Shown: piece by piece, positions 42,776 through 57,019 of the stretch
Layout of the letters: each line of letters opens with the position of its first letter
Numbering within the stretch: the stretch's first letter is position 1
From: an uncultured Solibacteraceae bacterium
GTDB lineage: Bacteria > Acidobacteriota > Vicinamibacteria > Vicinamibacterales > SCN-69-37
Assembly (NCBI GenBank): GCA_964419785.1
Contig: CAYQRM010000136.1
Span: 5,305 to 69,304 of the forward strand
Length of the DNA stretch: 64,000 nucleotides
Direction of reading: 5' to 3'
The notes under the pieces: generated by a model
Seen by the model: only the letters and a program-made list of their open reading frames with translations
What the model was told of the DNA's origin: nothing
The model's database searches: none
Made by a program: the position numbers and the translations under genes

Positions 42776-45715
42776 ATGCAGAAACGACTGGTACAAGCCG
42801 CCCTGGTGGCCTTGTGCCTGATGGCGTTCGCTGGTCTCGCTTCCGCCCAGGTGTTCACTGGGCGCATAGATGTGACCGCGAAGGACGGTACGGGCGCCGT
42901 ACTGCCGGGCGTCACCGTCGATATCACTGGCCCGCAGTCGGCCAGTGCCGTAACCGACAGCCGCGGTGAGGCGCACTTCCTCAACCTCGCGCCCGGCACA
43001 TACACCGTCAACGGCAAGCTGTCGGGGTTCAACAACTACAAGAACGACAACGTCCCGGTAGGCGCAGGCAACGTCATCCCCCTGGACATCACGCTGTCGG
43101 TCGGCAACGTCGCGACCTCGGTCGAGGTCAAGGCGGAGACGCCGGTGCTCGAGACGAAGAAGACGTCCATCTCCACGAACGTGACTCTCGACGAGCTCCA
43201 GAACGTCCCGACGTCGCGCGATCCGTGGGTCGTGCTGCAGACCGTACCTGGCATCACCGTTGACCGTGTGAACGTCGGCGGAGCCGAGTCAGGCCAGCAG
43301 TCGAACTTCCAGGCCAAGGGTGCTCGCGGCCAGGACAACACGTGGAACATGGACGGGATCGCGATCACGGACATGGCCGCGCTCGGTTCGTCGCCGACCT
43401 ACTACGACTTCGACATGTTCCAGGAAATGCAGGTGACGACCGGCGGCGCCGACGTCACGACCGCGACGCCAGGTGTCGGGCTCAACTTTGTGTTGAAGAG
43501 CGGCACCAATCGCTTCCGCGGGTCGGGCCGGTACTATTTCGAGAACGACGGATTGCAGTCCGACAACCTGTCGGCGGCGTTGACGAGCCAAATCACGAGC
43601 TACAACCGCGTGCAGGCCTACTACGACATGGGCGTTGAAGCCGGCGGGCCGATTGTCAAAGACAAGCTGTGGTTCTGGGGTGCGTACGGCTACACGAATC
43701 CGCGGCTGAGGATCTACACGTACTCGAAGAGCGGTGGCGCGACGATCTTCAACCAGGGCACCGATTCTCAGTGCTCGCAGCTCGGCACGACGAGTATCGC
43801 TCCGCCACAGGCCTACTCGGTCACCGCCCGCGACTGCACGACGTTGAAAAACACCTCCGCCAAGCTGAATGGCGATTTCAACAGCGCGACGCACGCCTCG
43901 TTCACCTTCTTCGAAGGCAACAAGCAGAAGTTCGGCCGCAGCGCTGGTCCGACCCGCCCGTCAGAGACGACCTGGAATCAGGACGGACCAACTCGACTGT
44001 ACAAGGCTGAGGTCAACCGCACCATCTCGGACAGCCTGTTCGTGACCGCACGGTACGCACACATTCAGGGCGGTTTCACGTTCCAGCCACTTGGCGGCAC
44101 CTCGGGTAACGTCACGGCGTGGCAGGACGACAGCGCGATCTGGCACGGGACCTACTACTCCTACGACACGAACCGTCCCCAGGACACGCTTCAGCTGGAA
44201 GGGACCTCGTTCAAAGGCATCCACGAGCTGAAGTTCGGCTTTGGCTGGCGCAAGTCGTCGGTCAGTTCGAACGTGACGTGGCCAGGCCTCGTGTATACGC
44301 TCGACAACGGGTACCCCGACTTGTTCGCGGCCTTGTCGCGTCCCTTCGCATTCAATGGACATAGCGTGTACTGGAACGCGTATGCCGGTGACGTCATCAC
44401 GAAGGACCGCTTTACCTTCAACCTCGGCCTGCGGTGGGACCGCCAAGCGGGCTCCACGGACCCGGTCTCGATCCCCGGCAACCCGCTCGATCCTGTCCAT
44501 CTGCCCGCGCTCAACGTCGGAGGCCAGGACAACGTCGTCGTCTACAACACCATCGTTCCGCGTCTCGGCGTGACCTACGCGCTCGGTAAGGATCGGAAGA
44601 CGCTGCTCCGAGCGACCTACTCACGATTTGCGGATCAGCTGGACTCGAACCTGCCGTACAGCCTGTCGATCGGCGTGCCGTACTACTCATATTCGTACTG
44701 GTACGCGACGGACAAGAACGGCGACCATCAGGCGCAGGCGAACGAGCTGACATCATTTGTGGGCACGAACGTTCCGCACGCCACGACCGGAAGCTATAAA
44801 GTGCCGAAGACGGACGAGTTCGTCCTCGGCGCCGACCATGAGCTCATGCCGAACTTCGGCGTCAGCGCATCGTGGACGTATCGCCGCCGGACCGATCAAG
44901 ACTGGCTGCACCTGAACGGCTTGACCGGCAGCGACTACGTGCAGACCGGATCGCTCGTCGGCAACGTCGCGCCCATCGGTCCCTTCTGTGGGAGCAGCGC
45001 CGGGTGTCCGCTCTATTCACCGCTGCCGGGAACCGTACCTTCTGACCTGGGCTTCATCTTCGAGAGCCGTTCCGGTTATCACCAGACGTATAAAGGCCTC
45101 GAGATCGCCGGGACCAAGCGGATGTCCAACAACTGGATGATGCGCATGTCGTGGTCGGGCGGAGCGAACCGCGAGTACTTCGACAGTGTTGACGCCAAGG
45201 CCGATCCGACACCCACGCTGCCCGGCAACGCTGAGTGGACGACGAATTCGCCGAACGTCAATGGCGGCGTCGTCATCACGCAAACCTCCGGCAGCGGAAA
45301 GAGCAACATCTTCATCGTGCTGCCGAAGTATCAGTTCGTGCTGACGACCGCATATCAGATGAAGTACGACATCAACTTCGGTCTCAACTACTTGTTCCGG
45401 CAGGGCTATGCCGAACCGTACTACAACAGCTCGACGCTCGACCCAATCACCGGAGGCCGTCGCAATGTCGTGGTGATCCCGCAGAGCGTTGACGACTACC
45501 GGCTGCCGAACGTGCACTCGGTGGACGGCCGCGTGAGCAAGGGCTTCAATTTCAAGACCTTCACGGCCAACGTCGACTTCGATCTGTTCAATATGTTCAA
45601 CTCGGCCACGCCGCTCGGCAAGCAGTACGACCAGCGTCGGGCGAACTTCAACCAGATCTTGGAGATCATGAATCCGCGCATCCTGAGGATCGGTGTTCGC
45701 GTGTCGTTCAAGTAA
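42776..45715 (+). CDS. TonB-dependent receptor, Oar-like, with N-terminal CarboxypepD_reg domain
   Basis: Signal ..LASA|Q; TGAVLPGVTV, plug LQNVPTSRDP..LQTVPG, DGIAITD, FQEMQVTTGG, FNLGLRWD, DLFNMFN, C-terminal PRILRIGVRVSFK. Confidence 0.92.
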   Translation: MQKRLVQAALVALCLMAFAGLASAQVFTGRIDVTAKDGTGAVLPGVTVDITGPQSASAVTDSRGEAHFLNLAPGTYTVNGKLSGFNNYKNDNVPVGAGNVIPLDITLSVGNVATSVEVKAETPVLETKKTSISTNVTLDELQNVPTSRDPWVVLQTVPGITVDRVNVGGAESGQQSNFQAKGARGQDNTWNMDGIAITDMAALGSSPTYYDFDMFQEMQVTTGGADVTTATPGVGLNFVLKSGTNRFRGSGRYYFENDGLQSDNLSAALTSQITSYNRVQAYYDMGVEAGGPIVKDKLWFWGAYGYTNPRLRIYTYSKSGGATIFNQGTDSQCSQLGTTSIAPPQAYSVTARDCTTLKNTSAKLNGDFNSATHASFTFFEGNKQKFGRSAGPTRPSETTWNQDGPTRLYKAEVNRTISDSLFVTARYAHIQGGFTFQPLGGTSGNVTAWQDDSAIWHGTYYSYDTNRPQDTLQLEGTSFKGIHELKFGFGWRKSSVSSNVTWPGLVYTLDNGYPDLFAALSRPFAFNGHSVYWNAYAGDVITKDRFTFNLGLRWDRQAGSTDPVSIPGNPLDPVHLPALNVGGQDNVVVYNTIVPRLGVTYALGKDRKTLLRATYSRFADQLDSNLPYSLSIGVPYYSYSYWYATDKNGDHQAQANELTSFVGTNVPHATTGSYKVPKTDEFVLGADHELMPNFGVSASWTYRRRTDQDWLHLNGLTGSDYVQTGSLVGNVAPIGPFCGSSAGCPLYSPLPGTVPSDLGFIFESRSGYHQTYKGLEIAGTKRMSNNWMMRMSWSGGANREYFDSVDAKADPTPTLPGNAEWTTNSPNVNGGVVITQTSGSGKSNIFIVLPKYQFVLTTAYQMKYDINFGLNYLFRQGYAEPYYNSSTLDPITGGRRNVVVIPQSVDDYRLPNVHSVDGRVSKGFNFKTFTANVDFDLFNMFNSATPLGKQYDQRRANFNQILEIMNPRILRIGVRVSFK

Positions 45716-45734: not shown

Positions 45735-45768
45735 AAAGGGCGCTGCCTTCTGGCAGCGCCCTTTTTTT
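45735..45768. terminator. Bidirectional intrinsic terminator
   Basis: aaa-GGGCGCTGCC-ttct-GGCAGCGCCC-ttttttt between convergent genes. Confidence 0.9.
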
Positions 45769-47911
45769 ATTGCAGTGATTTCCAGCCCAGCACCGCGAGC
45801 GCGTCGCGTGCCTGCTGTTCGAACGGGCCGCCAATGGCGAGATATTTCTTGTACGCCTCGATCGCACGCTCGCGGTTGCGATCGGCGAGCATGGTCGTCG
45901 CGGTGGGGTTCGAGGACGTGCTGCGCAGGATGCGCAAGAAGAGGAAGTGATAGGCGCGCCCGAGGTTGAAATAACCGAGGCCGTCGTCGGGCGCGGCCGC
46001 GATCGCCTTGTTGAACGCGTCCACGGCATCGTCAAAGGCGGCGCGCGCGACCAAGACGCATCCGGCGGCCAGGTGCGTTTCAGCGTCGTTCGGCCAGCGA
46101 CGCTCCGCCTCGCGCAGCACCGTCAGCGCGTCACTCTGGCGATGCTGCTGAATGTAACTGTCGGCCAGGTCGAAATAGACCGGTTCGTAGTCTGGAAGAT
46201 CGTGCCGAACGCGATCGAAGGCCTGAACCGCCGCGTCCAGGTGCTGGAGCGCGAATTCCGCCTGGCCGAGCGCGTACTGGATCCACGCAGCGTTCGGCGA
46301 GGCCGCCGCCGCACTTGCGAGCTTCTCTCGCGCCTCCTCGACGTGCCCCTTGGCGTACAACTGCCACCCGTCGTGCGCCAGCTGCGTCGCTTCAGGGGTG
46401 GCAGTTCGTCCGGCGTTGCTGCCCGACGAAGCGAGTACCGTCACCAACCCGACACTATCCGGACGGCTGATCAGGCCTGACTCGTCGGGCCGGCGCGGCG
46501 CGCCCATGATGCCGGACTTTCCGACGGCTAGTGGGAGCGCATCGACGACGGTTCCGATCGGCACCGCAGACGGCGTCGTCGATGCCGTCGCTCCCGAAGG
46601 TTCTTCCGGCGCGGCCGGGCCAGTCGCGCTTCTCGCGGCGAGGTATCCCCGCCGGGCGCGCACGACGACGTCGGGACGCCGCACGGTGACCTCGAGCTTG
46701 CGATACGAGTCGTCGAAAGCTTTCGCGGGCCGATAGCCCAGCATGTAGTACGTGCTCGTCTCACGCGCGAGCCGATCGAGTGGCTCGCGGAAGTTGTTGT
46801 AATTGAAAACGCGATCGCCGCCGGTATCCAGCGCGAGGCTCGTCAGCACGTCGGCATTGGCATCATTCGAGAGCGACGTAAGCTCGCCTGTCAACGTCAG
46901 CGGTGCGGGACCCAGAAAGGACTGCATGCGCTCGTCTTTGCCGATGCCGCGTGCGTCGAACGTCGAGAAGTGCACGCCGTTGCGCGCGGCAAGCCCCACC
47001 ACCGTCTTCAGCCATTCGCTGGTGTCGTCGGTGTAGAAGCCTTCAGAGAACACCACCACCTGCTTCGGCCCGGGAATGCGCGCAAGGCCGTTGGCAAGCG
47101 ACTGCAGCTCAGTGAGGCTGATCGATGTGTCCCGCATGGTCTCGGCGGCGATTCGTCGGCCCTTCTCCTCGACCTGCTGGCGAACGCTTTCGTCGCCGCC
47201 CCGGTTGCACTCGCCCGGCTGTTCGGCGCATCCGCGACGCACGACCGCGTCGATCGTCGGCTGGTCGTCTTTGGCGATCTTCGCGGCTTCGAACTCATCG
47301 AGAATTCTTGGGAAGCTCCGCATTTCGGCGAAGCGAGACAAATTCGGCGTCTTGACGTCCGCGAACGTCTTCTGCAGCGCGTCTCGATCGCCGGTGATTC
47401 GATTGCCGAGCATCTTGCCGTTGGCGACGATGCCGACGAGATCGCTTGGCGTGAATTGGTCTTTCAGAAAGTCCAGGATGGCGTCGCGACTGCGCGTGAA
47501 GCCCGCGGCGGACAAGTGGTTCATGTCGAGCATGAACACGAACACGCGCTGTTTCATTTCGCGGCGCTCGGGACGTTTCGCAGTCCCGGAGGCGAGCGAC
47601 GTCGTCGCTGACGCATCGAGGACTTTTCGATCGAGCGAGGCGAGATAAATCGTCTGAATCGTCTGGCTCTGTCCGTCTTCACGAATATCGAAGTCGGCTG
47701 CCGTCAGATCCGTCACGGGTTGGCCGTTCTTGTCGGTAACTGACACGTCCACTTCGACAAGATCCACTCCCGCGGAAAACTGCGGACGAGCCTGGGTGGC
47801 CGACGCCGGGCGTGGCGATGTGGTTGGAGGCGGCGTTTGCTGCTGCGCCAGTACTGTCGCGGCGCCGGCGGCGAGGAGGGTCGCCGACAGGATCGCAGAG
47901 CCTGGCCGCAT
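45767..47911 (-). CDS. Secreted acidobacterial VWA-domain protein with C-terminal TPRs
   Basis: FSAGVDLVEVDVSVTDKNGQPVTDLTAADF...EDG..Q.I, FMLDMNH, KQVVVFSEGF, L..LA.DTGG, YY.LGY.P, VRARRGY; TPR helices; start reassigned to ATG 47911. Confidence 0.88.
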   Translation of the reverse strand: MRPGSAILSATLLAAGAATVLAQQQTPPPTTSPRPASATQARPQFSAGVDLVEVDVSVTDKNGQPVTDLTAADFDIREDGQSQTIQTIYLASLDRKVLDASATTSLASGTAKRPERREMKQRVFVFMLDMNHLSAAGFTRSRDAILDFLKDQFTPSDLVGIVANGKMLGNRITGDRDALQKTFADVKTPNLSRFAEMRSFPRILDEFEAAKIAKDDQPTIDAVVRRGCAEQPGECNRGGDESVRQQVEEKGRRIAAETMRDTSISLTELQSLANGLARIPGPKQVVVFSEGFYTDDTSEWLKTVVGLAARNGVHFSTFDARGIGKDERMQSFLGPAPLTLTGELTSLSNDANADVLTSLALDTGGDRVFNYNNFREPLDRLARETSTYYMLGYRPAKAFDDSYRKLEVTVRRPDVVVRARRGYLAARSATGPAAPEEPSGATASTTPSAVPIGTVVDALPLAVGKSGIMGAPRRPDESGLISRPDSVGLVTVLASSGSNAGRTATPEATQLAHDGWQLYAKGHVEEAREKLASAAAASPNAAWIQYALGQAEFALQHLDAAVQAFDRVRHDLPDYEPVYFDLADSYIQQHRQSDALTVLREAERRWPNDAETHLAAGCVLVARAAFDDAVDAFNKAIAAAPDDGLGYFNLGRAYHFLFLRILRSTSSNPTATTMLADRNRERAIEAYKKYLAIGGPFEQQARDALAVLGWKSLQ

Positions 47912-47922
47912 CGTCGAGCACT

Positions 47923-48693
47923 TCACCTCTCGACCTTCGCGATGACGACGGCGAACTTGTTCCGTCCACGGCCTTCGAGGTAGGCGAGCTTCTGTCCATC
48001 CGCAGTCCACGCCGGGAGGACGACCGACTTCGTGCCATCGATCTTCTGCCGAGCTCCGGTCGAGTCCATGATCACCAGTCGCCCGGTCGACTTCTCCGCG
48101 TACGCGATCATGTGGCTGCCGGCCGGACCCCACCCGAACGTGAGCCCTGGAACAATCGCGTGATTGACCCATTCGCCGACGATTTCGCCCTTGAGAAGCA
48201 TGCTGTAGACGGTGCCATTCGTGGACGCATTCGCCGCGGCCGTCACTGATTCGACCGACGCCCCATTGGCGGTGCCATCCGTGCCGCCTCTCGCGAGATC
48301 GCCGCCCATCGGAATGGCCGTCGCGGACGCAATTCGCTTCTCCGTGGAGATCTCGATCTTGAACGCAGCGTCGTCCGGCGCGGTCTGCCCCGACTTCCAG
48401 GACCAATAGCCAATCGCCCAATCAGGCTCAGCGTTGACTTTCTGGAATGTGCCGCCCGTGGCCGGCATCACGTAGTGGTACGAATCTTTCGGCAGGGCGC
48501 GCTGATCCTCGGTGACCGTCTGCAGATACAGCTGTGTGCCGTCTGGCGACCACGCGAGCTGCCTGACCTGGCTGCCTTTCATCTTTCCAAGATCGAACTG
48601 CGCGATCTCGCTCGGGGTGAGTTTCAACTGTGTCGCGGGGCTCTGTTGGGCGACGAGCGCGGTCGATGCCAGGACGAACACGAAAGCTTTCAT
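47923..48693 (-). CDS. Secreted hypothetical protein with TolB/WD40-like repeats
   Basis: AAGGAG RBS; signal ..ALVA|Q; LAWSPDGTQLY, PAWTADGQKLAY. Confidence 0.7.
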   Translation of the reverse strand: MKAFVFVLASTALVAQQSPATQLKLTPSEIAQFDLGKMKGSQVRQLAWSPDGTQLYLQTVTEDQRALPKDSYHYVMPATGGTFQKVNAEPDWAIGYWSWKSGQTAPDDAAFKIEISTEKRIASATAIPMGGDLARGGTDGTANGASVESVTAAANASTNGTVYSMLLKGEIVGEWVNHAIVPGLTFGWGPAGSHMIAYAEKSTGRLVIMDSTGARQKIDGTKSVVLPAWTADGQKLAYLEGRGRNKFAVVIAKVER

Positions 48694-48724: not shown

Positions 48725-51361
48725 TCACTTCTTCAAGCCATCGAGCATGCGTCGGAGCTCAACGGATTGCGGCAGCGCCGCCAGTCCCGATTCCAAGGCC
48801 TGCCGCGCGAGCGCCGGCTGCTCCAGACGCAGATACGTCTCGGCCAGCGCGAGGTGCGCGGACACGAGCGTCGGATCGAGAAATGCCGCACTCCGAAAGG
48901 CCGATGCGGCGGCCACCTGGTTCCCCACGCCGAGTCTTGCCCAGCCAAGGACGAACGCTACGCTCGCGTCCGTCGGCTGACGTTCGAACAACTGCTCGAG
49001 GTCGGCCGCGGCGCCCGGGTAATCCTGGCGATCGAGACGCGCCAGCGCACGTAGTCGCACCGCGTCAGGATCCGTCGCGACGCTGCTCGTGAGGTCCGCG
49101 ACGTTTGTCCATCGTCCGGCCTGCGCTTCGCCCGCAGCTTGACGGACGTTTGCCACAGGACTCGTCAGCGCGTGATCCACCATCGATTTGACGATCGCTC
49201 CCCGCAGCACATCGCGGGCCGGTGGCGTTGTGGGGATGGCCGCCGCTTCTCGAGCCTTGGGCGACCGAGCCGCCGTATCTGCCGGGCGCATGCCGTCGAC
49301 GACCTGCAGTTGTCGCCGAAGATCGCCCACGACCTCGCCGCCGGCGCGAATCACCGCGTGAGCGATGTAATCGCCTGGCGGAATGTCGGACAGCGGCAAC
49401 GTGAACGAGACGTCACGAACGATCCCCTGGTCGGACGAACGCGGGTCGGCAACCGTGCCGCTGACCGAACGCGTCGGACGATCGGCCGCACCGTTGGGCG
49501 AGGCGGCGAGACTCATCAAGTCCAGCGAAGCGGAAAGGCCAGCCAATTGAACCTCGTTCCGCCCGTACACACGGACCGCGCCCGCGATCAGGTCGCTTGT
49601 GTAGCCGATTGAGTGGACCGGCAAACGATCGCCGGGTGTGCCGAGGATGAGATCGCTCGTCGCCGGATCGGGGCCGCTGAGGCTGCGCACCGTGAATTGG
49701 CGATCGGCGCTGCCGACGAGTCCCCCGGGTTCGCGCACGACACAGCGCATCATGTAGTCGCCCGGGGGCAGATCGAATCGCGTGCGCCAGATGCCGACGC
49801 CCGCGGCACGGCCCGGAACCGGATCCCGCGGGAGCGGGATGCTGTCTGCACCTTTCGCGGCGATTTGACTCGAGCTCATGTCCCGGACGACGAAGACGAC
49901 GTCAGCGGCGCCATCGACCGGCGAAGCGTCAACCGGAAGATCCGCATTGAGACTCACGGCAACGTTCTGAAGGCCAGGATGCTCGGACTGTCCGACGTAG
50001 GTCGTGTACTCGACGCGCAGGCTCTGTTGATTGAACGGCGCGGCGAGCGCGGACTCGATCGCTCGGCGGCGATCGGCAGGCGTCTGGGAAGGGCCTGCCA
50101 CGTAGCCGGTACGCGTGCTGACCCGCACGCCCGGCCGGGTGACTCGCACCGACACGCGTCGGTAGGCATCGCGATCAGCGAGGGCGGCCGACGGCGCGGG
50201 GAATCCAATGACGTAGTAGTCGGGCTCGGCGGCGCCGAGCGCGTCGAGGGCCTCATCGAGATGGCTCGCCGCATCGAGGACGAGCTGGCCGTTCGTGTCC
50301 GACGCCAGCATGCTCAACGGCTCGAGCCGGTTGGCAATCTCGGACGGAACGTCGCTCCCGAGTGGCATGTTCGCGCTCAGACTCTCCATTCGCCGATTCA
50401 GATCGAACGCGTAGACGACTGAATACGTTTCGGCGGAAGCCGCCGCGACCTCTTCGACCGACCGCGAGACGTTGTCGCTGTGGAATCCTTCGGAAAAGAG
50501 GATCACCGTCTTGCGTCCGTCCACGGCGCGGAAGCTCCGCAGCAACTGCGACATCATGTCGAGAAACCGACGCGAGTCTGCGTCAGCGCGCTGCACGATG
50601 AGATTCGCCTGGTCCTTGATCAGGTCCCGCAGCGTGCTGGGATCGCCGCCGCCCGTCTTTCCCGTGACGTCGGGAAGCACGCCCGTTCGGCTCGGGGTTC
50701 CTCCCGTCGTCGTCATGAAGCGGTTGAGCACTTCGTCGTTGCCGCGCAAGATCTCGTACGCCTCGTTGACCGTCATATCCCGGTCGCCGGGCGTGAGGAC
50801 CCGTTCGAGCTCGCCGCGCACGTGCTGCAACTGCGCAATAGCGACGTTGACTTGCGCGGTGAATGGCTGGGCGGGCCCAGGGCCGGGCAGGCCGTAGACC
50901 GCGACGCGATCTTCAGGCCGGAACCTCCGTCGAAGGAACTGCTCGGCCGCGACACGCACGCGCTGCTCCGCGCCCGATGTGATGTGGAGCTGATCGAAGA
51001 CGAGCACGTAGAGCTGCCCGCGAGGCGAGCCCTGGTTGGTCGAGATCTCGCCCGCGATGGTCCTCTGTGCCGCCTCGAGATACGTGCGCCCGGATGCGGC
51101 GACGTGCTGGAACAGCACGATCGGTTGACGCGTGCCGGCGTCCAGGACCTCGACCTCGTCCGGCCGCAGGTCGGCGACGGGCCTGCCGGACGCGTCGGTC
51201 GCGCGCACGTCGAGCCGGACGACGTCAACGCCCGCGCGGAAGATCGCTTGATCGGCCGGAGCTGCCGGCGTTTGCGGCGCCTGCGCGAGCAGCGGCACCA
51301 CCAGAGCCAGCGCGAGCGCCAGGGGCAGTCGATCGAGCGCACGGCGCGTCCCACTCAGCAA
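48725..51361 (-). CDS. Secreted acidobacterial VWA-domain protein with extra Ig-like domains and TPRs
   Basis: FRAGVDVVRLDV.ATD..GRPVADL, LVFDQLH, KTVILFSEGF, LASDTNG, YYVIGF, STRTGY; TPR tail; start codon uncertain. Confidence 0.85.
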   Translation of the reverse strand: MLSGTRRALDRLPLALALALVVPLLAQAPQTPAAPADQAIFRAGVDVVRLDVRATDASGRPVADLRPDEVEVLDAGTRQPIVLFQHVAASGRTYLEAAQRTIAGEISTNQGSPRGQLYVLVFDQLHITSGAEQRVRVAAEQFLRRRFRPEDRVAVYGLPGPGPAQPFTAQVNVAIAQLQHVRGELERVLTPGDRDMTVNEAYEILRGNDEVLNRFMTTTGGTPSRTGVLPDVTGKTGGGDPSTLRDLIKDQANLIVQRADADSRRFLDMMSQLLRSFRAVDGRKTVILFSEGFHSDNVSRSVEEVAAASAETYSVVYAFDLNRRMESLSANMPLGSDVPSEIANRLEPLSMLASDTNGQLVLDAASHLDEALDALGAAEPDYYVIGFPAPSAALADRDAYRRVSVRVTRPGVRVSTRTGYVAGPSQTPADRRRAIESALAAPFNQQSLRVEYTTYVGQSEHPGLQNVAVSLNADLPVDASPVDGAADVVFVVRDMSSSQIAAKGADSIPLPRDPVPGRAAGVGIWRTRFDLPPGDYMMRCVVREPGGLVGSADRQFTVRSLSGPDPATSDLILGTPGDRLPVHSIGYTSDLIAGAVRVYGRNEVQLAGLSASLDLMSLAASPNGAADRPTRSVSGTVADPRSSDQGIVRDVSFTLPLSDIPPGDYIAHAVIRAGGEVVGDLRRQLQVVDGMRPADTAARSPKAREAAAIPTTPPARDVLRGAIVKSMVDHALTSPVANVRQAAGEAQAGRWTNVADLTSSVATDPDAVRLRALARLDRQDYPGAAADLEQLFERQPTDASVAFVLGWARLGVGNQVAAASAFRSAAFLDPTLVSAHLALAETYLRLEQPALARQALESGLAALPQSVELRRMLDGLKK

Positions 51362-51375: not shown

Positions 51376-53550
51376 TTATAATTTACCACCGGCGAGAAAC
51401 CGCCGGACGGCCGCGATTTCCTGCTCGTGCAAGGCCGCCGGCGCGGTTTGCACGTATTGTCGGCCGTAGGCGCGGGCTTCCTCGATCTGGCCCGTTTCGG
51501 CCAATCCGAACGTGAGGTCGTACAGCGCGTCGAAATCCGTCCGGTCGAGTGCAAATGCCTGCTTCCAGGCGTCGATGGCGTCTGCCTTTCGGCCTGTCTC
51601 CGACAACACGACGCCGAGAGTGGTATAGGCGCCCGGCAGCTTGGGATCGAGCGCGAGGGCGTGCCGCAGGCTCGCTTCGGCCGCCTGATGATCGCCGGCC
51701 GACTCTTGCAGCGTCCCGATGTTCTGATACGCCAGTCCGCTCGCGGGATCGATCTCGAGAATCCGGCGGAAGGTCTGCATCGCTTGCGCCGATTTGCCCG
51801 CGCTTCCGTACGCGATGCCAAGCGCAATCAACGCGTCCGGGTCATCGTCGGTGGATCCTTCGAGCAGCTGGACCGCGCGTCCGGCTTGGCCGGTCTCCGC
51901 CAGGTACTCGCCGAGTTTGATTCTGAGCTCGGCCTGCGGAAGACCTCGGCGGAGTGCGGCGTCGAGCGTCGCGATCGCCTGAGCTGGTTGACCCGCCTGC
52001 CAGTACACGAACGCGAGATACCTGTAGGCGTCGGCCATGCCCGGACGACGAGCGAGCACGCCGGTATAGAGCTCCACTGCCGCTCGCCAGTCGCCATGTT
52101 CGTACGCGTCCGTCGCGCGGTGCATGGCTTGCTCGAGATCGACCAGCCGTTTCGGATCGTCGGCGTCCGTATATTTCTCCTGCGGCGGCGCGCTGCCGGT
52201 CGTGTATCCCAGCGCGCGCAGTTTCTCGGCCACCTCGATGGTCTCCGCGGCCGGTCGCCCCGGCGGATTGACATCGAAGCTTCTGAGAGTGGCCGCGAGG
52301 ACCGCCGCTCGATCGGCGCGATTCGCGAACTGATTCCGTTCTTCTCGCGGGTCGGTCCCCAGGTCGTAGAGCTCTGGCATCGGGAGGTCGATGTACTTGT
52401 CGCGTCCGGCGATCACGCCTCGAAGCGGTGCCCACCCGCGCGTGATGTTTGCCGACATCGCCTCGAAGTAGCCGGGCCGATCGGCGCCGCCTCCAGAGGC
52501 GATGAGCGGCAACAGGGACACGCCAGGCAGACTGCCGTCAGCCGGTGCGCTCACGGCGTCGAGGAGTGTCGGCACCACATCGACGTGGCGTACGGACGTG
52601 TCCACGACGATCCCGCTCGTCGTCCGGCCGTTCGGCACGATTTCCGCGACGATGAGCGGCACGTGCAGCGTCGATTCGTACGCGAAGAGGCCGTGGGTGA
52701 GTTCGCCGTGATCGCCGAGGCCTTCACCATGATCGGCCGTGACGATGACGAGCGTGGGGCGAGGCTGCGATGCGAGCGTAGCGAACAGCGGCCCGAGTGC
52801 AGAATCCGTCCACGAGACCTCGCCGAGGTACGGGTCGCCTGGGAATTTTGCAAGCCACTCGGGCGGCGGACGATAGGGGGCGTGCGGATCGTAGCAGTGT
52901 ACGAACGCGAACCACTTGCCGGATTGCTGGTGGATCCAGGCGAGCGCCGGCTGGATCACCTCGTCCGCGCGTCGTTCTGGCAGCGTGAAATCGGCCTGCG
53001 ATCCGATTTCGCCGACGCGGTCGTCATAGACATCGAAACCCGGCGCAAGACCGAAGCGGTGGTCGAGCGGAAATCCGCCGATGAAGGCTCCGGTAGCAAA
53101 GCCGATCGCTTTGAGGCGTGTGGCCGCGGTCGGTTCGCCCGCGCGCAGCAGGTAGCCGGCGTTGTCGCGGATGCCGTGCTCGTACGGATAGCGGCCGGTC
53201 AGAAGGCTGGCGTGTGAGGCCAGCGTGACGACGGCTTGCGCGTGCGCGAACGTGAAGCGTGCGCCGTGCGCAGCCAGCCCATCGAGATTCGGCGTGAGCG
53301 CGCGGCCGCCGTATGATCCGAGCGCGTCGGCGCGCAGCGTGTCGATCGACACGAGCAGAATGTTGCGATCGGCACGCGGCATGATGCTGAGCGCTGGCTC
53401 GCGCGCTCGCCACCACAGGCCGAGACCGACGACCGTGGCGATTGCGAGCGCGGCCACCAACCATCGCAGGCGTGATGCGGACGCTGACGGCGCGGCGGGC
53501 GTGCTCGCGCGTGCGCTGGCAGGTCGGCGAGGCGGTCTCTTCTTGGCCAT
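51376..53550 (-). CDS. Membrane-anchored sulfatase-like (alkaline phosphatase superfamily) protein with TPRs; Thr at the nucleophile position
   Basis: SIDTLRAD, VVTLASHASLLTG.YP, YDPHAPY, TADHGE; basic N-tail plus TM helix; TPR C-terminus. Confidence 0.88.
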   Translation of the reverse strand: MAKKRPPRRPASARASTPAAPSASASRLRWLVAALAIATVVGLGLWWRAREPALSIMPRADRNILLVSIDTLRADALGSYGGRALTPNLDGLAAHGARFTFAHAQAVVTLASHASLLTGRYPYEHGIRDNAGYLLRAGEPTAATRLKAIGFATGAFIGGFPLDHRFGLAPGFDVYDDRVGEIGSQADFTLPERRADEVIQPALAWIHQQSGKWFAFVHCYDPHAPYRPPPEWLAKFPGDPYLGEVSWTDSALGPLFATLASQPRPTLVIVTADHGEGLGDHGELTHGLFAYESTLHVPLIVAEIVPNGRTTSGIVVDTSVRHVDVVPTLLDAVSAPADGSLPGVSLLPLIASGGGADRPGYFEAMSANITRGWAPLRGVIAGRDKYIDLPMPELYDLGTDPREERNQFANRADRAAVLAATLRSFDVNPPGRPAAETIEVAEKLRALGYTTGSAPPQEKYTDADDPKRLVDLEQAMHRATDAYEHGDWRAAVELYTGVLARRPGMADAYRYLAFVYWQAGQPAQAIATLDAALRRGLPQAELRIKLGEYLAETGQAGRAVQLLEGSTDDDPDALIALGIAYGSAGKSAQAMQTFRRILEIDPASGLAYQNIGTLQESAGDHQAAEASLRHALALDPKLPGAYTTLGVVLSETGRKADAIDAWKQAFALDRTDFDALYDLTFGLAETGQIEEARAYGRQYVQTAPAALHEQEIAAVRRFLAGGKL

Positions 53551-53583
53551 CGATGGTCAGGCCGGGCGCAGCGTTGTCGCCAG

Positions 53584-55788
53584 TCAGCGTCCGAACTTCG
53601 CTTTCGCTTCCGATCTCACGCTCGCGGCGCGATCCGGTTGTCCGAACATATCCCACAAATGTGCAGCGGTCTCGTACGCCATCGGCGACGGCGAGACCTT
53701 CAGCATCTCCGCGATCTCGCGCTCCACGTCGTCGGGCCGGTTGGTGGACGCGTAGAGCATGGCCAGGCCGGAGCGCGCGCGCATGCTGCTTGGGTAGATC
53801 GAAAGCTCTTCACGAAACATCCGCTCGGCTTCGGGATATCGCTCGAGTCGCGCGAGCGTGTCGCCGACGTAAAAGCGGAGATCGGCCGGCTGCATCGTCC
53901 GCGCGGCCCATTCGTCGCGCGCTTTCATCAGGAGCGGCAAGGCCTCCTGATACTGCCCTTGGTTGTACGCGATCATGCCGCGGATATACGTGGGCATCGG
54001 CAACGTCGGGTCGGCCTGAGCCGCGAGATCGGCTTGTCGCTGGGCCTCGGCGTAATCCTTCTTCGCGAGCGCGATGTTGGCCAATGTCTGATGCGCGCGG
54101 CCTGGTGACGTCTTGAGGACGAGCTCGGCGTGTGCTCGCGCCTCGTCGTACCGCCGAAGCGTCAGCAGCGCCGCCGCGGCGCCGAGCAAGCCGCTCGGCT
54201 CTTCGGGCTTCAGGCGGATCACCTGTTTGTAGGCATCAAGCGCCTCGGCTTCGCGACCGAGCCGCGTCAGCACGACCGCGTACTGGACCCAGACGTCGGT
54301 CATGTCCGGGTTTGATTTGAGCAAGTCGCGGAAGCGATCGGCGGACGCCGCGAATTGGCGATCGTCGAGCAGCGTCACCGCCTCACGATACTGCTTGAGC
54401 ACCGGCGCCATCTCTTTCGGATCCGGCAGAGAGGACCCGGGCCGACTGGCGCCGGCCGAAAACTGCGTGCCGATATATCCAAGCGCGGCCAACCGCTCGC
54501 GATCTTCGGCCGATACCGCCGACGGTGCGTCAATGTCGCGTCCAGCCGTCAGCGTTTCGAGACCCGACCGCATGCCCGCCGCCGTCTGCGGGTGATCGGC
54601 GACGACGTTCGCGCGCTCGTGGGGATCGTCTCGAAGATCGTAGAGCTCGTCGTGCGGCGCCTTGATGAATTTGTACCGCTCGTCAGTGAGCGAGAGCAGC
54701 TCGCTCCAGCCAAAGTGATAACGCGGATAGAGCGCCTCCGAGTAGACGCCCTCCGCCGCTGGATGGCCGGTCGCGCGCAGCAAGGGCGTCAGGTCGCGCC
54801 CGCGCAGGCCCCGGGGCGCCGTGAGGCCGGCGAGCGTCGCGATCGTGGGGAACAGATCGATGTGTTGCACCAGGTCCGCGACGCGACGGCCCCCAGACTT
54901 TCCGCCCGGCAGCTTCATCAGCCACGGTACGTGGATGGTCTCTTCGTAGACGAACAATCCGTGTTCGTACTCGCCGTGATCGCCCAGGCCCTCGCCGTGA
55001 TCGGAGAGCAGCACGACGGTCGCGTTCGAGTACCAACCTCGGCGTTTGAGATCGACCAAGAGCTTGCCGACGATCTCGTCGGCATACGCGATCTCGCCGT
55101 CGTAGGGCGAGAGCGATGAGAATCGTTGTGGCGGCGTGTATGGCGTGTGCGGCTCGTAGATGTGAAAGAAGAGGAAGAAACGATCGTCGGAGAGCGTATT
55201 GAGCCATGCTTCCGCAGCCGCGAGCGTCTGCTCGCCAGGGCGCTGGACCTGACCGAGCGACACGTCGGACGCGGCGGCCGGCAGTTCCGCGTTGTAGACG
55301 TCGAATCCGCGTCCGATGCCGGTTTCCGGGCGCAGCACGTACGCGGACACGAACCCTCCGGCTTTGTAGCCCGCCTGATGGAAACGTTCCGCGAGCGTCG
55401 GTTTATCGGGCGCGAGCGTGAAGCCGAGATTGTCGCGCACGCCATGTTCGAACGGCAGCAGTCCCGTCAGGATCGACGTGTGCGCCGGCAGTGTCTGAGG
55501 CGCGTGGCTGTACGCGCGCTCAAAGAGCACGGACTCTCTGGCCAAGGCATCAATCGTCGGCGTCTGACCGTTCGCATAGCCATAGACGGGGAGGTGATCG
55601 GCCCGCAAGGTGTCGATCGAGATCAGCACGACGGCCCCGGGACGCACGGGCCGCACGAACGGCCAGACGACGACACTCGCGCCGACGATGAGGCCGACGA
55701 TCGCCAGCGCCAACAGCACGCGCGGCCATCGCGAACTCTTTGGATTCTGGCGAGGTTGGGAGCGCGCGGAGCGCGGCGATCGAGCCAT
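53584..55788 (-). CDS. Membrane-anchored sulfatase-like protein with TPRs (paralog); Thr at the nucleophile position
   Basis: SIDTLRAD, PQTLPAHTSILTG, YEPHTPY, LSDHGE; start reassigned to ATG 55788. Confidence 0.88.
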   Translation of the reverse strand: MARSPRSARSQPRQNPKSSRWPRVLLALAIVGLIVGASVVVWPFVRPVRPGAVVLISIDTLRADHLPVYGYANGQTPTIDALARESVLFERAYSHAPQTLPAHTSILTGLLPFEHGVRDNLGFTLAPDKPTLAERFHQAGYKAGGFVSAYVLRPETGIGRGFDVYNAELPAAASDVSLGQVQRPGEQTLAAAEAWLNTLSDDRFFLFFHIYEPHTPYTPPQRFSSLSPYDGEIAYADEIVGKLLVDLKRRGWYSNATVVLLSDHGEGLGDHGEYEHGLFVYEETIHVPWLMKLPGGKSGGRRVADLVQHIDLFPTIATLAGLTAPRGLRGRDLTPLLRATGHPAAEGVYSEALYPRYHFGWSELLSLTDERYKFIKAPHDELYDLRDDPHERANVVADHPQTAAGMRSGLETLTAGRDIDAPSAVSAEDRERLAALGYIGTQFSAGASRPGSSLPDPKEMAPVLKQYREAVTLLDDRQFAASADRFRDLLKSNPDMTDVWVQYAVVLTRLGREAEALDAYKQVIRLKPEEPSGLLGAAAALLTLRRYDEARAHAELVLKTSPGRAHQTLANIALAKKDYAEAQRQADLAAQADPTLPMPTYIRGMIAYNQGQYQEALPLLMKARDEWAARTMQPADLRFYVGDTLARLERYPEAERMFREELSIYPSSMRARSGLAMLYASTNRPDDVEREIAEMLKVSPSPMAYETAAHLWDMFGQPDRAASVRSEAKAKFGR

Positions 55789-56071: not shown

Positions 56072-57019
56072 TTGCCCATGTCATCACGCGGTCTCTGGCC
56101 GGTCGCTTGTACGGTGATGCTCTCGCTCTCCGTCGCGCATGGGCGTGCGCTCCCGGCGGCCCAAGGCGTCTCGCTCTCCGAGCTGCTCCAACGCTCGGCT
56201 TCATCTCTTGAGGACTTCGACACGAAGTTTTCTGCGGTGATCTCGCAAGAGTCCTACAAGCAGACCGAGACGAGGCTCGAGGGCCAGCCCGCGCAGCCGC
56301 GCACCTACAACCGACAGACAAAGTCGCAGATTCTTTTTGTCAACGGTGGCGGTACGTGGCTCTGCTTTCGCGATGTCTTCGAGGTCGACGGTAAAGCATT
56401 GCCTGACCATGTCGCGCGGTTCGCGCGGTTGTTGGAGAGCCCTGCTACGGCGTCTGTTGACGCGGGATCGCTTGCGACTCACATCACGTCGGAGAGCGCC
56501 AGATATAACCTCGGCGGCGTCGCACGGAATTTCAATCTGCCTACGATGGCGCTGACTTTTCTCAGACGCGCCAACCAGGAGCGGTCAAAGTTTCACGACG
56601 ACGGCGCCGAGCGCAAAGGTGACACCGCAGAGACGCACATTGTGTCGTTCTCGGAAAAACGACGCCCGACACTCGTCCGCGACGCCGCCAATCACGACGT
56701 GCCTGCAACGGGCCGATTCTGGATCGACACGTCTGGCCGAGTCGATCGCACGGAACTGAAGCTCGAGACCGAGGACGGTGTTCGCGCGACCGTCACGGTG
56801 GAGTACGGACCACAACCCAAGCTGGACATCTTCGTACCCCTTTCCATGCACGAGCAGTACGAACAATCAATCGTGGACAAGATCGACGCGCACGCTGAGT
56901 ACTCAGGATTTGTCGTTCCCAATGTGACGGTGGACCTAAGCGGTTTCAAAGAGGGCGCAGGCCTCACAGGCCGTGGCCGCGGAGGCGCTCCGCACAACCC
57001 AGCCAGAAGCCATAGATGA
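56072..57019 (+). CDS. Secreted hypothetical protein (acidobacterial family commonly near VWA genes)
   Basis: Signal ..LPAA|Q; FRDVFEVDGK, ESARYNLG...RNFN.PT.AL.FL, GRFWID..G.V.RTEL, A.YS.F. Confidence 0.7.
   Translation: MPMSSRGLWPVACTVMLSLSVAHGRALPAAQGVSLSELLQRSASSLEDFDTKFSAVISQESYKQTETRLEGQPAQPRTYNRQTKSQILFVNGGGTWLCFRDVFEVDGKALPDHVARFARLLESPATASVDAGSLATHITSESARYNLGGVARNFNLPTMALTFLRRANQERSKFHDDGAERKGDTAETHIVSFSEKRRPTLVRDAANHDVPATGRFWIDTSGRVDRTELKLETEDGVRATVTVEYGPQPKLDIFVPLSMHEQYEQSIVDKIDAHAEYSGFVVPNVTVDLSGFKEGAGLTGRGRGGAPHNPARSHR

What the first reader, a model, noticed from the sequence alone, without database searches (positions are those of the whole stretch)
51376..55788. Tandem sulfatase-like TPR proteins have Thr and no C/S-x-P-x-R motif, so they are probably not sulfatases
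Seen: TLASH and TLPAH at the nucleophile position with intact metal ligands (DTLRAD, D/EPH, DHGE), N-terminal membrane anchors and TPR tails. Established: formylglycine generation needs Cys/Ser in C/S-x-P-x-R; Thr nucleophiles occur in phosphodiesterase and phosphoform-transferase members of the superfamily (NPP, LtaS, EptA). Inference: periplasmic phosphodiesterases or phospho/sulfo-transferases that modify envelope components, possibly acting as a pair.
Basis: partly seen in the sequence, partly recalled or inferred. Interest (0 to 1): 0.62.

Follow-up and report, generated by a model that had tools for sequence, protein, structure and literature searches.

The report
Threonine-type sulfatase-fold enzyme pair
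Two neighbouring membrane-anchored genes of a soil acidobacterium look like sulfatases, but their active site is of the threonine/histidine type used by phosphate-ester enzymes; they belong to a very large, conserved and untested family, so the "sulfatase" label is almost certainly wrong and their real job is unknown.

Summary
Window 53584-55788 (-) and 51376-53550 (-) encode 734-aa and 724-aa proteins. Each has a basic N-terminus, one TM helix, a PF00884 catalytic domain and a TPR tail of about 270 aa.

At the formylglycine position they read T-L-P-A-H and T-L-A-S-H. All sulfate-binding residues of true S1 sulfatases (Arg55, Lys113/His115, Lys375 in PAS numbering) are replaced, while the core metal ligands are kept. 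The T-x-P-x-H motif is present in 268 of 272 relatives. No PROSITE sulfatase signature occurs in 270.

The fold is S1 sulfatase / phosphonate monoester hydrolase (TM 0.70-0.77). The nucleophile segment, however, matches ENPP1/3 best, including the phosphate-binding Asn 21 residues after the Thr. The other three motifs align with EptA.

The genome's only canonical Cys-type sulfatase sits beside its maturase, far from these genes.

The two genes represent two ancient clades (A and B) that co-occur in 41 of 53 multi-copy loci and are fused in some proteins. They head a five-gene operon that converges on an orthologous Oar-like TonB-dependent barrel.

They are most likely periplasmic Thr-nucleophile phosphoesterases, substrate unknown. 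That Thr-type PF00884 proteins are not sulfatases is already in print (SulfAtlas 2016); this clade remains uncharacterised.

The parts
53584..55788 (-). Gene A (P0001, 734 aa): A-clade Thr-type sulfatase-fold enzyme with a TPR tail
   Evidence: ORF and translation. PF00884 145 bits, PF01663 60 bits, SGSH_C 67 bits, TPR families. A clade in the tree.
55663..55719 (-). Signal-anchor TM helix of A (aa 24-42), preceded by a +7 N-terminal segment
   Evidence: Hydropathy 2.75 over 19 residues. Only about 10 residues separate it from the first beta strand.
54469..55641 (-). Catalytic domain of A (aa 50-440)
   Evidence: AF2 model has pLDDT 92.7 and pTM 0.93. Foldseek gives TMq 0.70-0.77 to S1 sulfatases and PMH.
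55429..55494 (-). Nucleophile segment of A: T99-L-P-A-H103 ... T-G ... H-G-V-R-D-N120
   Evidence: It aligns ungapped with the FGly motif of sulfatases. Its best PDB matches are ENPP1/3, with T99 on ENPP1 T256 and N120 on N277.
54958..55002 (-). Metal/His motif of A: D263-H264-G-E-G-L-G-D-H271-G-E-Y-E-H276-G
   Evidence: It aligns with EptA SDHGESLGENGIYLHG. H276 sits where 6pt6 has the sulfate-binding Lys.
53587..54420 (-). TPR tail of A (aa 457-734, about 14 helices)
   Evidence: Pfam TPR_2, TPR_16 and TPR_19. Helical repeats with pLDDT around 90 or above in model 1.
51376..53550 (-). Gene B (P0002, 724 aa): B-clade paralogue with the same architecture (TM aa 28-46, catalytic aa 62-450, TPR aa 470-724)
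   Evidence: The B clade has 42 members and support 100.
53161..53226 (-). Nucleophile segment of B: T109-L-A-S-H113 ... H-G-I-R-D-N130
   Evidence: The catalytic residues are conserved in both clades.
48725..51361 (-). Third operon gene: exported TIGR03436 (acidobacterial VWA-like) protein with a TPR tail, 878 aa; 14 nt after gene B
   Evidence: NCBIfam TIGR03436 148 bits. It follows the Sulf pair in Vicinamibacterales loci.
47923..48693 (-). Fourth operon gene: small exported PD40/TolB-like propeller protein, 256 aa
   Evidence: Weak TolB-propeller match. Orthologues are present at the same place in 14 of 52 long loci.
45767..47866 (-). Fifth operon gene: second TIGR03436 VWA-like/TPR protein, 699 aa
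   Evidence: TIGR03436 177 bits.
45735..45764 (-). Terminator-like hairpin (13 bp stem, 9 GC pairs, T-run) directly after the last operon gene, between the operon and the convergent barrel gene
42776..45715 (+). Convergent Oar-like TonB-dependent barrel (CarboxypepD_reg + Plug + OMP_b-brl_4), 979 aa
   Evidence: Pfam. Barrels next to Sulf pairs elsewhere score 400-1322 bits against it, while the best paralogue in the own genome scores 257 bits.

Best explanation
Genes A and B encode inner-membrane-anchored enzymes that face the periplasm. They are built on the S1-sulfatase / phosphonate-monoester-hydrolase scaffold but have lost formylglycine chemistry.

Proposed mechanism:
- A threonine (T99 in A, T109 in B) is activated by a metal held by D59, D263 and H264. 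It attacks a phosphate ester, most likely a diester, and forms a phospho-threonine intermediate.
- N120, placed 21 residues after the Thr as in NPP enzymes, stabilises the transferred group. So does the His set H103, H209, H214, H271 and H276, which is EptA-like and may hold a second metal.
- Water then releases the phosphoryl group.

Proposed organisation:
- A and B are two ancient paralogue types that work side by side.
- Their TPR tails dock them to partners. The candidates are the two VWA-like/TPR proteins and the small propeller of the same operon, and the orthologous Oar-like TonB-dependent barrel next door.

What is shown: sequence, fold, motif conservation, topology signals, pairing and synteny.

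What is inferred: the chemistry, the metal, the hydrolytic outcome, the partners and the substrate.

My own odds: not a formylglycine sulfatase about 0.9; Thr-based phosphoryl transfer about 0.75; hydrolase rather than transferase about 0.55.
For: (1) Loss of sulfatase determinants.
- PS00523 and PS00149 are absent from both proteins, from the 3 other own Thr-type paralogues tested (a fourth is cut by a contig end) and from 270 relatives. The genome's canonical sulfatase has PS00523 and a GKWH motif.
- That canonical sulfatase is a close homologue of PAS 1hdh (E 7e-131). Mapping through it gives: D13 kept (D59); D14 to T60; FGly51 to T99; R55 to H103; K113/H115 to no Lys or His; H211 kept (H214); D317 kept (D263); N318 to H264; K375 to H276.

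(2) Similarity to NPP. The 39-aa nucleophile segment finds ENPP1/ENPP3 as its top 12 PDB hits (E 0.005-0.46). The first sulfatase comes at E 0.54. T99 falls on ENPP1 T256 and N120 on N277. PF01663 scores 60 and 48 bits. Xanthomonas NPP 2gsn scores E 7.5e-6 against the N-terminal 103 aa.

(3) Similarity to EptA. hhalign against E. coli EptA gives probability 96% and E 2.6e-9 over 253 columns. IDTLRAD aligns with GETSRAE, T99 with the second T of GTATA, H209/H214 with HTIGSH, and SDHGEGLGDHGEYEHG with SDHGESLGENGIYLHG. NCBIfam EptA/MCR models hit residues 227-296.

(4) Purifying selection. D59, R62, D64, T99, H103, R118, N120, H209, H214, D263, H264, E266 and H271 are invariant in 112 catalytic domains, and H276 is at 90% or more. 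Clades A and B both keep them.

(5) Internal control. The anSME maturase (495 bits, cut-off 349) lies at C185:14359-15525, directly beside the single Cys-type sulfatase at C185:15930-17168, and not near any Thr-type gene.

(6) Topology. Each protein has a +7 N-terminus and one TM helix. The three downstream products have signal-peptide-like N-termini.

(7) Pairing.
- The B clade has support 100.
- 41 of 53 multi-copy loci hold both A and B.
- The fused protein P0123 is A-TPR-B.
- P0127 and P0128 are double modules without an internal TM helix.

(8) Context. Of 52 loci of 15 kb or more, 41 have two or more Thr-type genes. In 28, a barrel within 10 kb scores above the best own-genome paralogue. 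A second paralogous cluster lies on contig C39.

(9) Print. SulfAtlas states that Thr-type PF00884 sequences cannot be regarded as sulfatases (PMC5066984).
Against: - No member of this clade has been assayed, and none turned up in six literature searches.
- By fold and by profile, the nearest relatives are formylglycine enzymes: Foldseek top 50, and hhalign to the canonical sulfatase at E 3e-18 against 2.6e-9 for EptA.
- The ENPP match rests on a short segment with marginal E-values.
- A second metal site is inferred from alignment only. I could not read model coordinates to measure distances.
- Nothing in the operon is an obvious phosphate-regulon gene, and the role of the VWA-like proteins is unknown.
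- Synteny with a barrel does not say whether substrate comes in or product goes out.
Confidence: 0.55

Rival explanations
1. They are phospho-group transferases of the EptA/LtaS/OpgB kind. The Thr takes a phospho-alcohol (phosphoethanolamine, glycerol phosphate or similar) from a lipid head group at the outer face of the inner membrane. It then passes it to an envelope polymer (LPS, exopolysaccharide, peptidoglycan-linked glycan) rather than to water.
For: - Three of four active-site motifs align with EptA, and NCBIfam EptA/MCR models give hits.
- The catalytic domain starts about 10 residues after the TM helix, so it is held at the membrane surface.
- The second paralogous cluster on C39 is embedded among three PMT_2 (GT-C) glycosyltransferases, two of them with TPR tails. 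These are envelope-modifying enzymes.
Against: - The multi-pass membrane domain that EptA, LtaS and OpgB use to bind the lipid donor is missing; there is only one TM helix.
- NCBIfam scores are far below the cut-offs (37 against 500 bits).
- The nucleophile segment is NPP/sulfatase-like (T-x-P-x-H...TG), not G-T-x-T-A-x-S.
- PMT_2 neighbours occur in only 4 of 78 loci.
- The widely conserved neighbour is a TonB-dependent barrel.
Confidence: 0.25
2. They are catalytically silent scaffolds or sensors, like the AP-superfamily periplasmic domain of YejM/PbgA. In this reading they use the old active-site pocket to bind a ligand, and they use the TPR tail to organise an envelope complex with the VWA-like proteins and the barrel.
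For: - The architecture is rich in protein-protein interaction modules (TPR in four of five operon products, VWA-like domains).
- No activity has ever been shown for the clade.
Against: - The nucleophile, the metal ligands and six further polar active-site residues are invariant in 112 domains from several classes, and in both paralogue clades. That is the pattern of an active enzyme.
- No clade shows decay of the site.
Confidence: 0.07
3. They are real sulfatases (or sulfo-transferases) that use Thr instead of formylglycine as the nucleophile.
For: - The overall fold and the C-terminal subdomain are those of S1 sulfatases, with TM 0.70-0.77.
- From my own knowledge: Ser/Thr enzymes of the AP superfamily do show weak promiscuous sulfatase activity.
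Against: - Every cationic sulfate-binding residue of S1 enzymes is replaced (R55, K113, K375).
- Arg55 is 99% conserved in 4058 true S1 sequences, and no Thr-type sulfatase is known (PMC5066984).
- The genome keeps a separate canonical sulfatase with its maturase.
Confidence: 0.04

Closest known systems
S1 formylglycine-dependent sulfatases and phosphonate monoester hydrolases (e.g. 9fo1, 7stt, 7oz8, 4uph, 2vqr; P. aeruginosa PAS 1hdh)
   Same: - Same two-subdomain fold (Foldseek E about 1e-28, TMq 0.70-0.77).
- PF00884 plus SGSH_C.
- Kept residues: D13, H211 and D317 (PAS numbering), the x-P-x-[RH]-x4-TG spacing, and the DHG...G-x-HG motif.
- hhalign probability 99%, E 3e-18.
   Different: - Thr instead of Cys/Ser-derived formylglycine.
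- Arg55 to His, Lys113/His115 lost, Lys375 to His, Asp14 to Thr.
- No PROSITE signature.
- Not placed beside the maturase.
- Extra TM anchor and a TPR tail of about 270 aa.
Nucleotide pyrophosphatase/phosphodiesterases (NPP; ENPP1 6wet, ENPP3 6c01, Xanthomonas NPP 2gsn)
   Same: - Thr nucleophile in T-[FL]-P-x-H-x4-T-G-L-x-P-x2-H-G-[VI]-x-D-N, with the Asn 21 residues after the Thr.
- An S-x-D-x-[LF]-R-A-D first motif and a D-H-G pair.
- PF01663 match over profile positions 1-220.
   Different: - Only the N-terminal half resembles NPP.
- NPP's D-x3-H ... H second zinc site was not identified.
- NPP structures are not among the top 50 fold matches.
- The C-terminal subdomain is sulfatase-like.
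Phosphoethanolamine / glycerophosphate transferases of PF00884 (E. coli EptA, MCR-type enzymes, LtaS)
   Same: - Thr nucleophile.
- [DE]-T-x-R-A-[DE], H-x4-H and S-D-H-G-E-x-L-G-x2-G-x-Y-x-H-G motifs align column for column.
- Periplasmic, and held at the membrane.
   Different: - One TM helix instead of a five-helix lipid-binding domain.
- Different sequence around the nucleophile.
- NCBIfam scores far under the cut-offs.
- Weaker profile match than to sulfatases (E 2.6e-9 against 3e-18).
Thr-type PF00884 sequences flagged as non-sulfatases in SulfAtlas (Barbeyron et al. 2016, PMC5066984)
   Same: It is the same general caveat. PF00884 collects many sequences with Thr at the nucleophile position, and these cannot be called sulfatases.
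   Different: The paper names a T-x-N-x-E group and the Pfam seed in general. In the passages I searched (a term search, not the whole paper) it does not mention the T-L-P-[SA]-H / TPR clade, its A/B pairing or its operon.
TonB-dependent uptake loci with periplasmic hydrolases
   Same: A TonB-dependent barrel is conserved next to exported esterase-type enzymes.
   Different: - The barrel is of the Oar type (CarboxypepD_reg N-terminus) and has no SusD-like partner.
- The enzymes are inner-membrane-tethered pairs with TPR tails.
- VWA-like proteins are part of the operon.
- This comparison is by gene order only and was not tested further.

Membership tests
S1 formylglycine-dependent sulfatases | AP-superfamily alpha/beta core plus C-terminal subdomain | tested here: met
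   PF00884 145/121 bits and SGSH_C. The Foldseek top 50 are all S1 sulfatases or PMH, with TMq 0.70-0.77.
S1 formylglycine-dependent sulfatases | C/S-x-P-x-R nucleophile motif (PROSITE PS00523) | tested here: not met
   The site reads T-L-P-A-H in A and T-L-A-S-H in B. The signature is absent from 270 relatives and from the own-genome Thr-type paralogues tested, and present in the genome's canonical sulfatase.
S1 formylglycine-dependent sulfatases | Second signature G-Y-x-[ST]-x3-G-K-x2-H (PS00149; Lys113/His115 of PAS) | tested here: not met
   The region reads G-Y-K-A-G-G-F-V-S-A-Y-V and has no Lys or His. The pattern is absent from all 270 relatives. The strict pattern also misses the own canonical sulfatase, although that protein does have GKWH.
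S1 formylglycine-dependent sulfatases | Sulfate-binding Lys after the D-[NH]-G motif (Lys375 of PAS, Lys302 of ARSA) | tested here: not met
   It is replaced by H276 (alignment to 6pt6) or by the H276-G277 pair (alignments to 7oz8 and PAS).
S1 formylglycine-dependent sulfatases | Formylglycine-generating partner (FGE or anSME) serving the gene | tested here: not met
   The anSME lies beside the single Cys-type sulfatase on contig C185. The only FGE-domain hit is inside a 954-aa Ser/Thr-kinase fusion. In any case a Thr cannot give formylglycine (PMC5066984).
NPP-type phosphodiesterases (PF01663) | Thr nucleophile followed 21 residues later by the phosphate-binding Asn, in the T-F-P-N-H...TG...HG-x2-D-N segment | tested here: met
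   The top 12 PDB hits of the 39-aa segment are ENPP1/3. T99 aligns with T256 and N120 with N277. The E-values are marginal (0.005 or above) because the query is short.
NPP-type phosphodiesterases (PF01663) | Two-zinc site with D-x3-H and a distal His; NPP fold over the whole domain | tested here: inconclusive
   The PF01663 match covers only profile positions 1-220 of 342. No NPP is among the top 50 fold matches. Candidate second-site His residues exist (H209, H214, H271, H276), but I could not measure their geometry.
EptA/LtaS-type phospho-transferases | Catalytic-domain motifs: [DE]-T-x-R-A-[DE], Thr nucleophile, H-x4-H, DHGE-x-LG-x2-G-x-Y-x-HG | tested here: met
   hhalign to E. coli EptA gives probability 96% and E 2.6e-9 over 253 columns, with all four motifs in register.
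EptA/LtaS-type phospho-transferases | N-terminal multi-pass membrane domain that binds the lipid donor | tested here: not met
   There is a single TM helix at aa 24-42 in A and 28-46 in B. E. coli EptA carries about 230 aa of membrane domain before the aligned region.
EptA/LtaS-type phospho-transferases | Score over the curated NCBIfam cut-offs | tested here: not met
   NF028537 scores 37 bits against a cut-off of 500. The EptA equivalogs score 32-33 bits against cut-offs of 561-660.
Thr-type T-L-P-[SA]-H / TPR clade (uncharacterised; named 'sulfatase-like hydrolase/transferase' by NCBI) | TM anchor or signal, catalytic domain with IDTLRAD, T-x-P-x-H...N, [DE]PH and DHGE...H...H, a LAALGY linker, and a TPR tail | tested here: met
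   Both proteins have every element. The nearest relatives are 56-84% identical and share the domain list.

The most novel reading that the evidence does not exclude
The A/B Thr-esterase pair, the two VWA-like/TPR proteins, the PD40 propeller and the orthologous Oar-like TonB-dependent barrel would be parts of one undescribed envelope-spanning system, widespread in Acidobacteriota and present in at least one other soil phylum. In this reading the barrel brings in (or sends out) a phosphodiester-linked polymer. Candidates are teichoic acid, eDNA or phospholipid and glycan head groups from necromass. Two inner-membrane-tethered hetero-paired phosphoesterases, positioned by their TPR arms, then cut it. 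That would make it a major route of organic-phosphorus or necromass turnover in soil that has not been recognised.
Probability: 0.25. Interest if true: 0.75.

Novelty: new variant of a known kind. Interest (0 to 1): 0.5.

Why it matters
These genes, and thousands like them, carry names such as "arylsulfatase A-like" or "choline-sulfatase" in metagenome annotations. Counts of "sulfatases" in soil Acidobacteriota are therefore inflated, and sulfur-cycling inferences built on them are wrong.

The family is large. It was found in 194 of 301 sampled Acidobacteriota species, often with six or more copies. There are more than 26,000 clusters at 50% identity with E up to 1e-30, a count that also takes in true sulfatases.

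For enzymologists it is a natural experiment in the alkaline-phosphatase superfamily. An S1 sulfatase scaffold carries an NPP-like Thr/Asn nucleophile segment and an EptA-like His set.

For microbial ecologists, its conserved pairing and its link to a specific TonB-dependent barrel point to an unstudied envelope function in one of the most abundant soil phyla.

Tried and rejected
- Literature. Six full-text searches combined sulfatase, TPR, threonine nucleophile, Acidobacteria and Vicinamibacter. None found a paper on this clade. A seventh attempt failed on syntax. Only the SulfAtlas paper bears on the finding.
- FGE. The only PF03781 hit is a domain inside a Ser/Thr-kinase fusion, not a plain FGE. 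The real maturase is an anSME.
- One-residue shift at the nucleophile. MAFFT and hhalign against the PAS-type sulfatase put the Cys on Q98, because of a one-residue length difference upstream. I rejected this placement. The P and R/H anchors fix the Cys at -2 from the Pro, which is T99. Four ungapped HMMER alignments (7oz8, 9bas, 3ed4, 4uph) agree.
- PMT_2 glycosyltransferases as a general partner. They flank the second cluster on C39 but occur in only 4 of 78 loci, so they are not part of the core.
- NamZ/beta-lactamase gene as a partner. It is divergently adjacent in 9 of 52 long loci, all close relatives. I treat it as inherited gene order.
- The divergent ORF 56072-57019. It has a lower GC3 (0.71), no family hit and no homologue in 78 loci. 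I do not count it as part of the system.
- Active-site distances. Model coordinates are not exposed to the Python box, so I could not measure them.
I redid it through a genome handle.

Full report
**What is there**

On the minus strand of the window there are two ORFs, 53584-55788 (P0001, 734 aa) and 51376-53550 (P0002, 724 aa), separated by 33 nt. Both match Pfam Sulfatase PF00884 (145 and 121 bits), the C-terminal sulfatase subdomain SGSH_C, Phosphodiest PF01663 (60 and 48 bits) and a long list of TPR families.

Each begins with a segment of net charge +7 followed by a 19-residue hydrophobic stretch (aa 24-42 and aa 28-46). The first beta strand of the catalytic domain follows only about 10-15 residues later. 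This is a type-II signal anchor that puts the enzyme on the periplasmic face of the inner membrane.

- IDTLRAD
- T-L-P-A-H (A) / T-L-A-S-H (B)
- H-x-Y-[ED]-P-H
- D-H-G-E-G-L-G-D-H-G-E-x-x-H-G

**Is the site really the formylglycine site?**

Ungapped HMMER alignments to solved sulfatases (7oz8, 9bas, 3ed4, 4uph) put T99 on the residue that becomes formylglycine and H103 on the Arg of C/S-x-P-x-R.

The same genome has one canonical sulfatase on contig C185, with C-S-P-T-R and GKWH. It is a close homologue of P. aeruginosa arylsulfatase 1hdh (E 7e-131). That let me carry the ten textbook active-site residues over to P0001 (residue roles are from my own knowledge of PAS):

| PAS residue | P0001 |
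|---|---|
| D13 | D59 (kept) |
| D14 | T60 |
| FGly51 | T99 |
| R55 | H103 |
| K113 / H115 | S148-A149-Y150-V151 (no Lys or His) |
| H211 | H214 (kept) |
| D317 | D263 (kept) |
| N318 | H264 |
| K375 | H276 |

So the core metal ligands and the general-acid His survive, while every cationic residue that holds the sulfate ester is gone. Neither PROSITE sulfatase signature occurs in the two proteins, in the own-genome Thr-type paralogues tested or in 270 relatives.

MAFFT and hhalign against the PAS-type enzyme shift the Cys onto Q98, because of a one-residue length difference upstream. The Pro and Arg/His anchors show this is an alignment artefact.

**More than chance**

T-x-x-x-H-x2-[ILMVFA]-x-[TS]-G is found in 268 of 272 relatives. 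These comprise 120 close homologues and 150 representatives of 50%-identity clusters. Most read T-L-P-S-H or T-L-P-A-H, and none has Cys/Ser...Arg at the site.

In 112 catalytic domains taken from 78 loci, D59, R62, D64, T99, H103, R118, N120, H209, H214, D263, H264, E266 and H271 are invariant. H276 is kept in at least 90%.

**What it resembles**

By fold, it resembles S1 sulfatases and phosphonate monoester hydrolases.
- A catalytic-domain model built on the 112-sequence alignment has pLDDT 92.7 and pTM 0.93.
- Its 50 best PDB neighbours are all formylglycine enzymes (E about 1e-28, TMq 0.70-0.77). The full-length model gave the same list.
- Profile comparison agrees. Against the canonical sulfatase hhalign gives probability 99% and E 3e-18 over 370 columns. 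Against E. coli EptA it gives 96% and E 2.6e-9 over 253 columns.

The active-site sequence tells a different story.
- The 39-residue nucleophile segment, searched against all PDB sequences, returns ENPP1 and ENPP3 as the top twelve hits (E 0.005-0.46), ahead of the first sulfatase (E 0.54).
- PQTLPAHTSILTGLLPFEHGVRDNL lies on [25 protein letters not shown]. T99 matches the ENPP1 nucleophile T256, and N120 matches N277, the Asn that binds the phosphoryl group in NPPs (residue roles are from my own knowledge).
- The other three motifs align column for column with EptA: IDTLRAD with GETSRAE, H209/H214 with HTIGSH, and SDHGEGLGDHGEYEHG with SDHGESLGENGIYLHG.
- In EptA/MCR enzymes the last two His positions hold a second zinc (my own knowledge; not tested here).

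The proteins are thus an S1 scaffold carrying an NPP-like Thr/Asn segment and an EptA-like His set.

**An internal control**

The genome encodes a bona fide anaerobic sulfatase-maturating enzyme (TIGR03942, 495 bits against a cut-off of 349) at C185:14359-15525. It lies directly beside the single Cys-type sulfatase at C185:15930-17168. The six Thr-type genes lie elsewhere. The only FGE-domain hit is inside a 954-aa Ser/Thr-kinase fusion.

**The pair**

A tree of 153 catalytic domains separates a B clade (42 members, support 100, long stem) that contains P0002 from the rest, which contains P0001.

Of 53 loci with two or more copies, 41 hold both types, in either order. They come from Vicinamibacteria, Thermoanaerobaculia and Holophagae, and from records labelled Terriglobia, Acidimicrobiia and Gemmatimonadaceae. 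All loci were fetched with an A-type query, so the presence of A is given and only the presence of B is informative.

Both clades keep the whole catalytic set. They differ at a few nearby positions (P97/V, V151/P, E212/D, E275/T), so neither is a decayed copy.

Three representatives are natural fusions of two full modules. P0123 is A-TPR-B, in the same order as here. None of the three has a TM helix between the modules, as a true fusion in one compartment requires.

**The surroundings**

A and B head a five-gene minus-strand unit with gaps of 14-56 nt:
- A
- B
- a TIGR03436 VWA-like/TPR protein (48725-51361)
- a small PD40-like protein (47923-48693)
- a second VWA-like/TPR protein (45767-47866)

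All of them have export signals. A strong hairpin with a T-run (45735-45764) follows the last stop. An Oar-like TonB-dependent barrel (42776-45715, plus strand) converges on it.

In 52 related loci of at least 15 kb:
- 41 have two or more Thr-type genes.
- 28 have a barrel within 10 kb that scores 260-1322 bits against the window's barrel.
- 17 have the VWA-like genes and 14 the propeller; these are mostly Vicinamibacterales.

The own genome has only ten detectable paralogues of that barrel, and the best scores 257 bits. The barrels found next to Sulf pairs elsewhere are therefore orthologues, not chance neighbours. In Thermoanaerobaculia and Holophagales the order is barrel, B, A on one strand.

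The genome holds a second, paralogous cluster on contig C39. It contains two Thr-type genes, VWA-like genes and the closest barrel paralogue, among three PMT_2 glycosyltransferases. PMT_2 neighbours are rare elsewhere, in 4 of 78 loci.

**Distribution**

The family is present in 194 of 301 sampled Acidobacteriota species genomes (129 of 186 genera) at E up to 1e-40.

It is also present in 15 of 121 genomes of the phylum that holds locus L046, whose record is titled Gemmatimonadaceae. Some of those genomes have up to 13 copies.

The representative library has 26,164 clusters at E up to 1e-30. That number also takes in true sulfatases. Sources name these proteins "sulfatase-like hydrolase/transferase", "arylsulfatase A-like enzyme" or "choline-sulfatase".

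**Mechanism proposed**

Shown: the sequence features, the fold, the conservation, the topology signals, the A/B pairing and the synteny.

Inferred:
- A metal held by D59, D263 and H264 activates T99.
- T99 attacks a phosphate ester, probably a diester given the NPP- and EptA-like features.
- N120 and the His cluster, perhaps with a second metal, stabilise the transition state.
- Water resolves the phospho-Thr intermediate.
- A and B act side by side at the membrane surface, with their TPR arms docking partners.

The main rival is transfer to an envelope acceptor instead of water. It is favoured by the EptA-like motifs, the short membrane tether and the C39 context. It is disfavoured by the lack of a lipid-binding membrane domain. 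A scaffold role or true sulfatase activity are unlikely, for the reasons given under the rival explanations.

**Novelty**

That Thr-type PF00884 sequences are not sulfatases is already in print. [quoted passage not shown] It also reports that Arg55 is 99% conserved in true S1 enzymes (PMC5066984).

I could not find three things in print: this particular clade with its mosaic active site, its TPR tail and A/B pairing, and its operon.

Earlier notes of this scan on other genomes describe the same clade and operon. I treated them as leads and re-tested their main points here. They are not independent evidence.

I rate this a new variant of a known kind. It is of moderate interest until someone measures an activity.

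Noticed in passing
own genome, contig C185:14359-17168 (outside the window): The only canonical Cys-type sulfatase of the genome (C-S-P-T-R, a PAS-like arylsulfatase) is divergently adjacent to a bona fide anSME radical-SAM maturase (495 bits).
   Followed up: yes
own genome, contig C39:1-19724 (outside the window): A second, paralogous cluster. It holds two Thr-type sulfatase-fold/TPR genes (one cut by the contig end), VWA-like genes and the closest paralogue of the window's barrel. It is interleaved with three PMT_2 (GT-C) glycosyltransferases, two of them with TPR tails, and an unassigned 502-aa membrane protein.
   Followed up: partly
own genome, contig C289:13037-13828 region: A short (about 441 aa) Thr-type paralogue (T-L-T-A-H) without a TPR tail. 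It has a lipobox-like N-terminus (AIGAC) instead of a TM anchor.
   Followed up: no
own genome, contig C76:5473-6129: The only FGE-sulfatase (PF03781) domain of the genome sits in a 954-aa open frame that starts with a Ser/Thr protein kinase domain. It is not a stand-alone formylglycine-generating enzyme.
   Followed up: partly
window 56072-58362: About 2.8 kb lies between the operon and the NamZ gene. It holds a doubtful divergent ORF (56072-57019; GC3 0.71; no family; no homologue in 78 loci), a cupin gene and a MarR gene. In the closest relatives (e.g. L009, L088) NamZ is directly adjacent to gene A, so this stretch looks like an insertion.
   Followed up: partly
window 58570-60987 (+): An 805-aa fusion of a beta-lactamase-family domain with the exo-beta-N-acetylmuramidase NamZ (N and C domains). 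It is a peptidoglycan-fragment scavenging enzyme, and it is conserved divergently upstream of the Sulf pair in 9 of 52 long loci.
   Followed up: partly
P0123, P0127, P0128 (representative proteins; not in the window): These are single polypeptides of 1317-1549 aa that contain two complete catalytic modules, each followed by TPR repeats, with no TM helix between them. P0123 ends in what looks like frameshifted sequence.
   Followed up: partly
window 54466-54495 (aa 432-441 of gene A) and the matching place in gene B: An invariant L-A-A-L-G-Y motif, followed by a near-invariant D-P-K, lies in the linker between the catalytic domain and the TPR tail. It is conserved in all 112 domains and its role is unknown.
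   Followed up: no
window 45735-45764: A 13-bp GC-rich hairpin lies between the convergent operon and the barrel gene. It was scored as a terminator on the minus strand, with a T-run there. Its position between the two convergent genes might let it serve both, but the plus strand was not checked.
   Followed up: no
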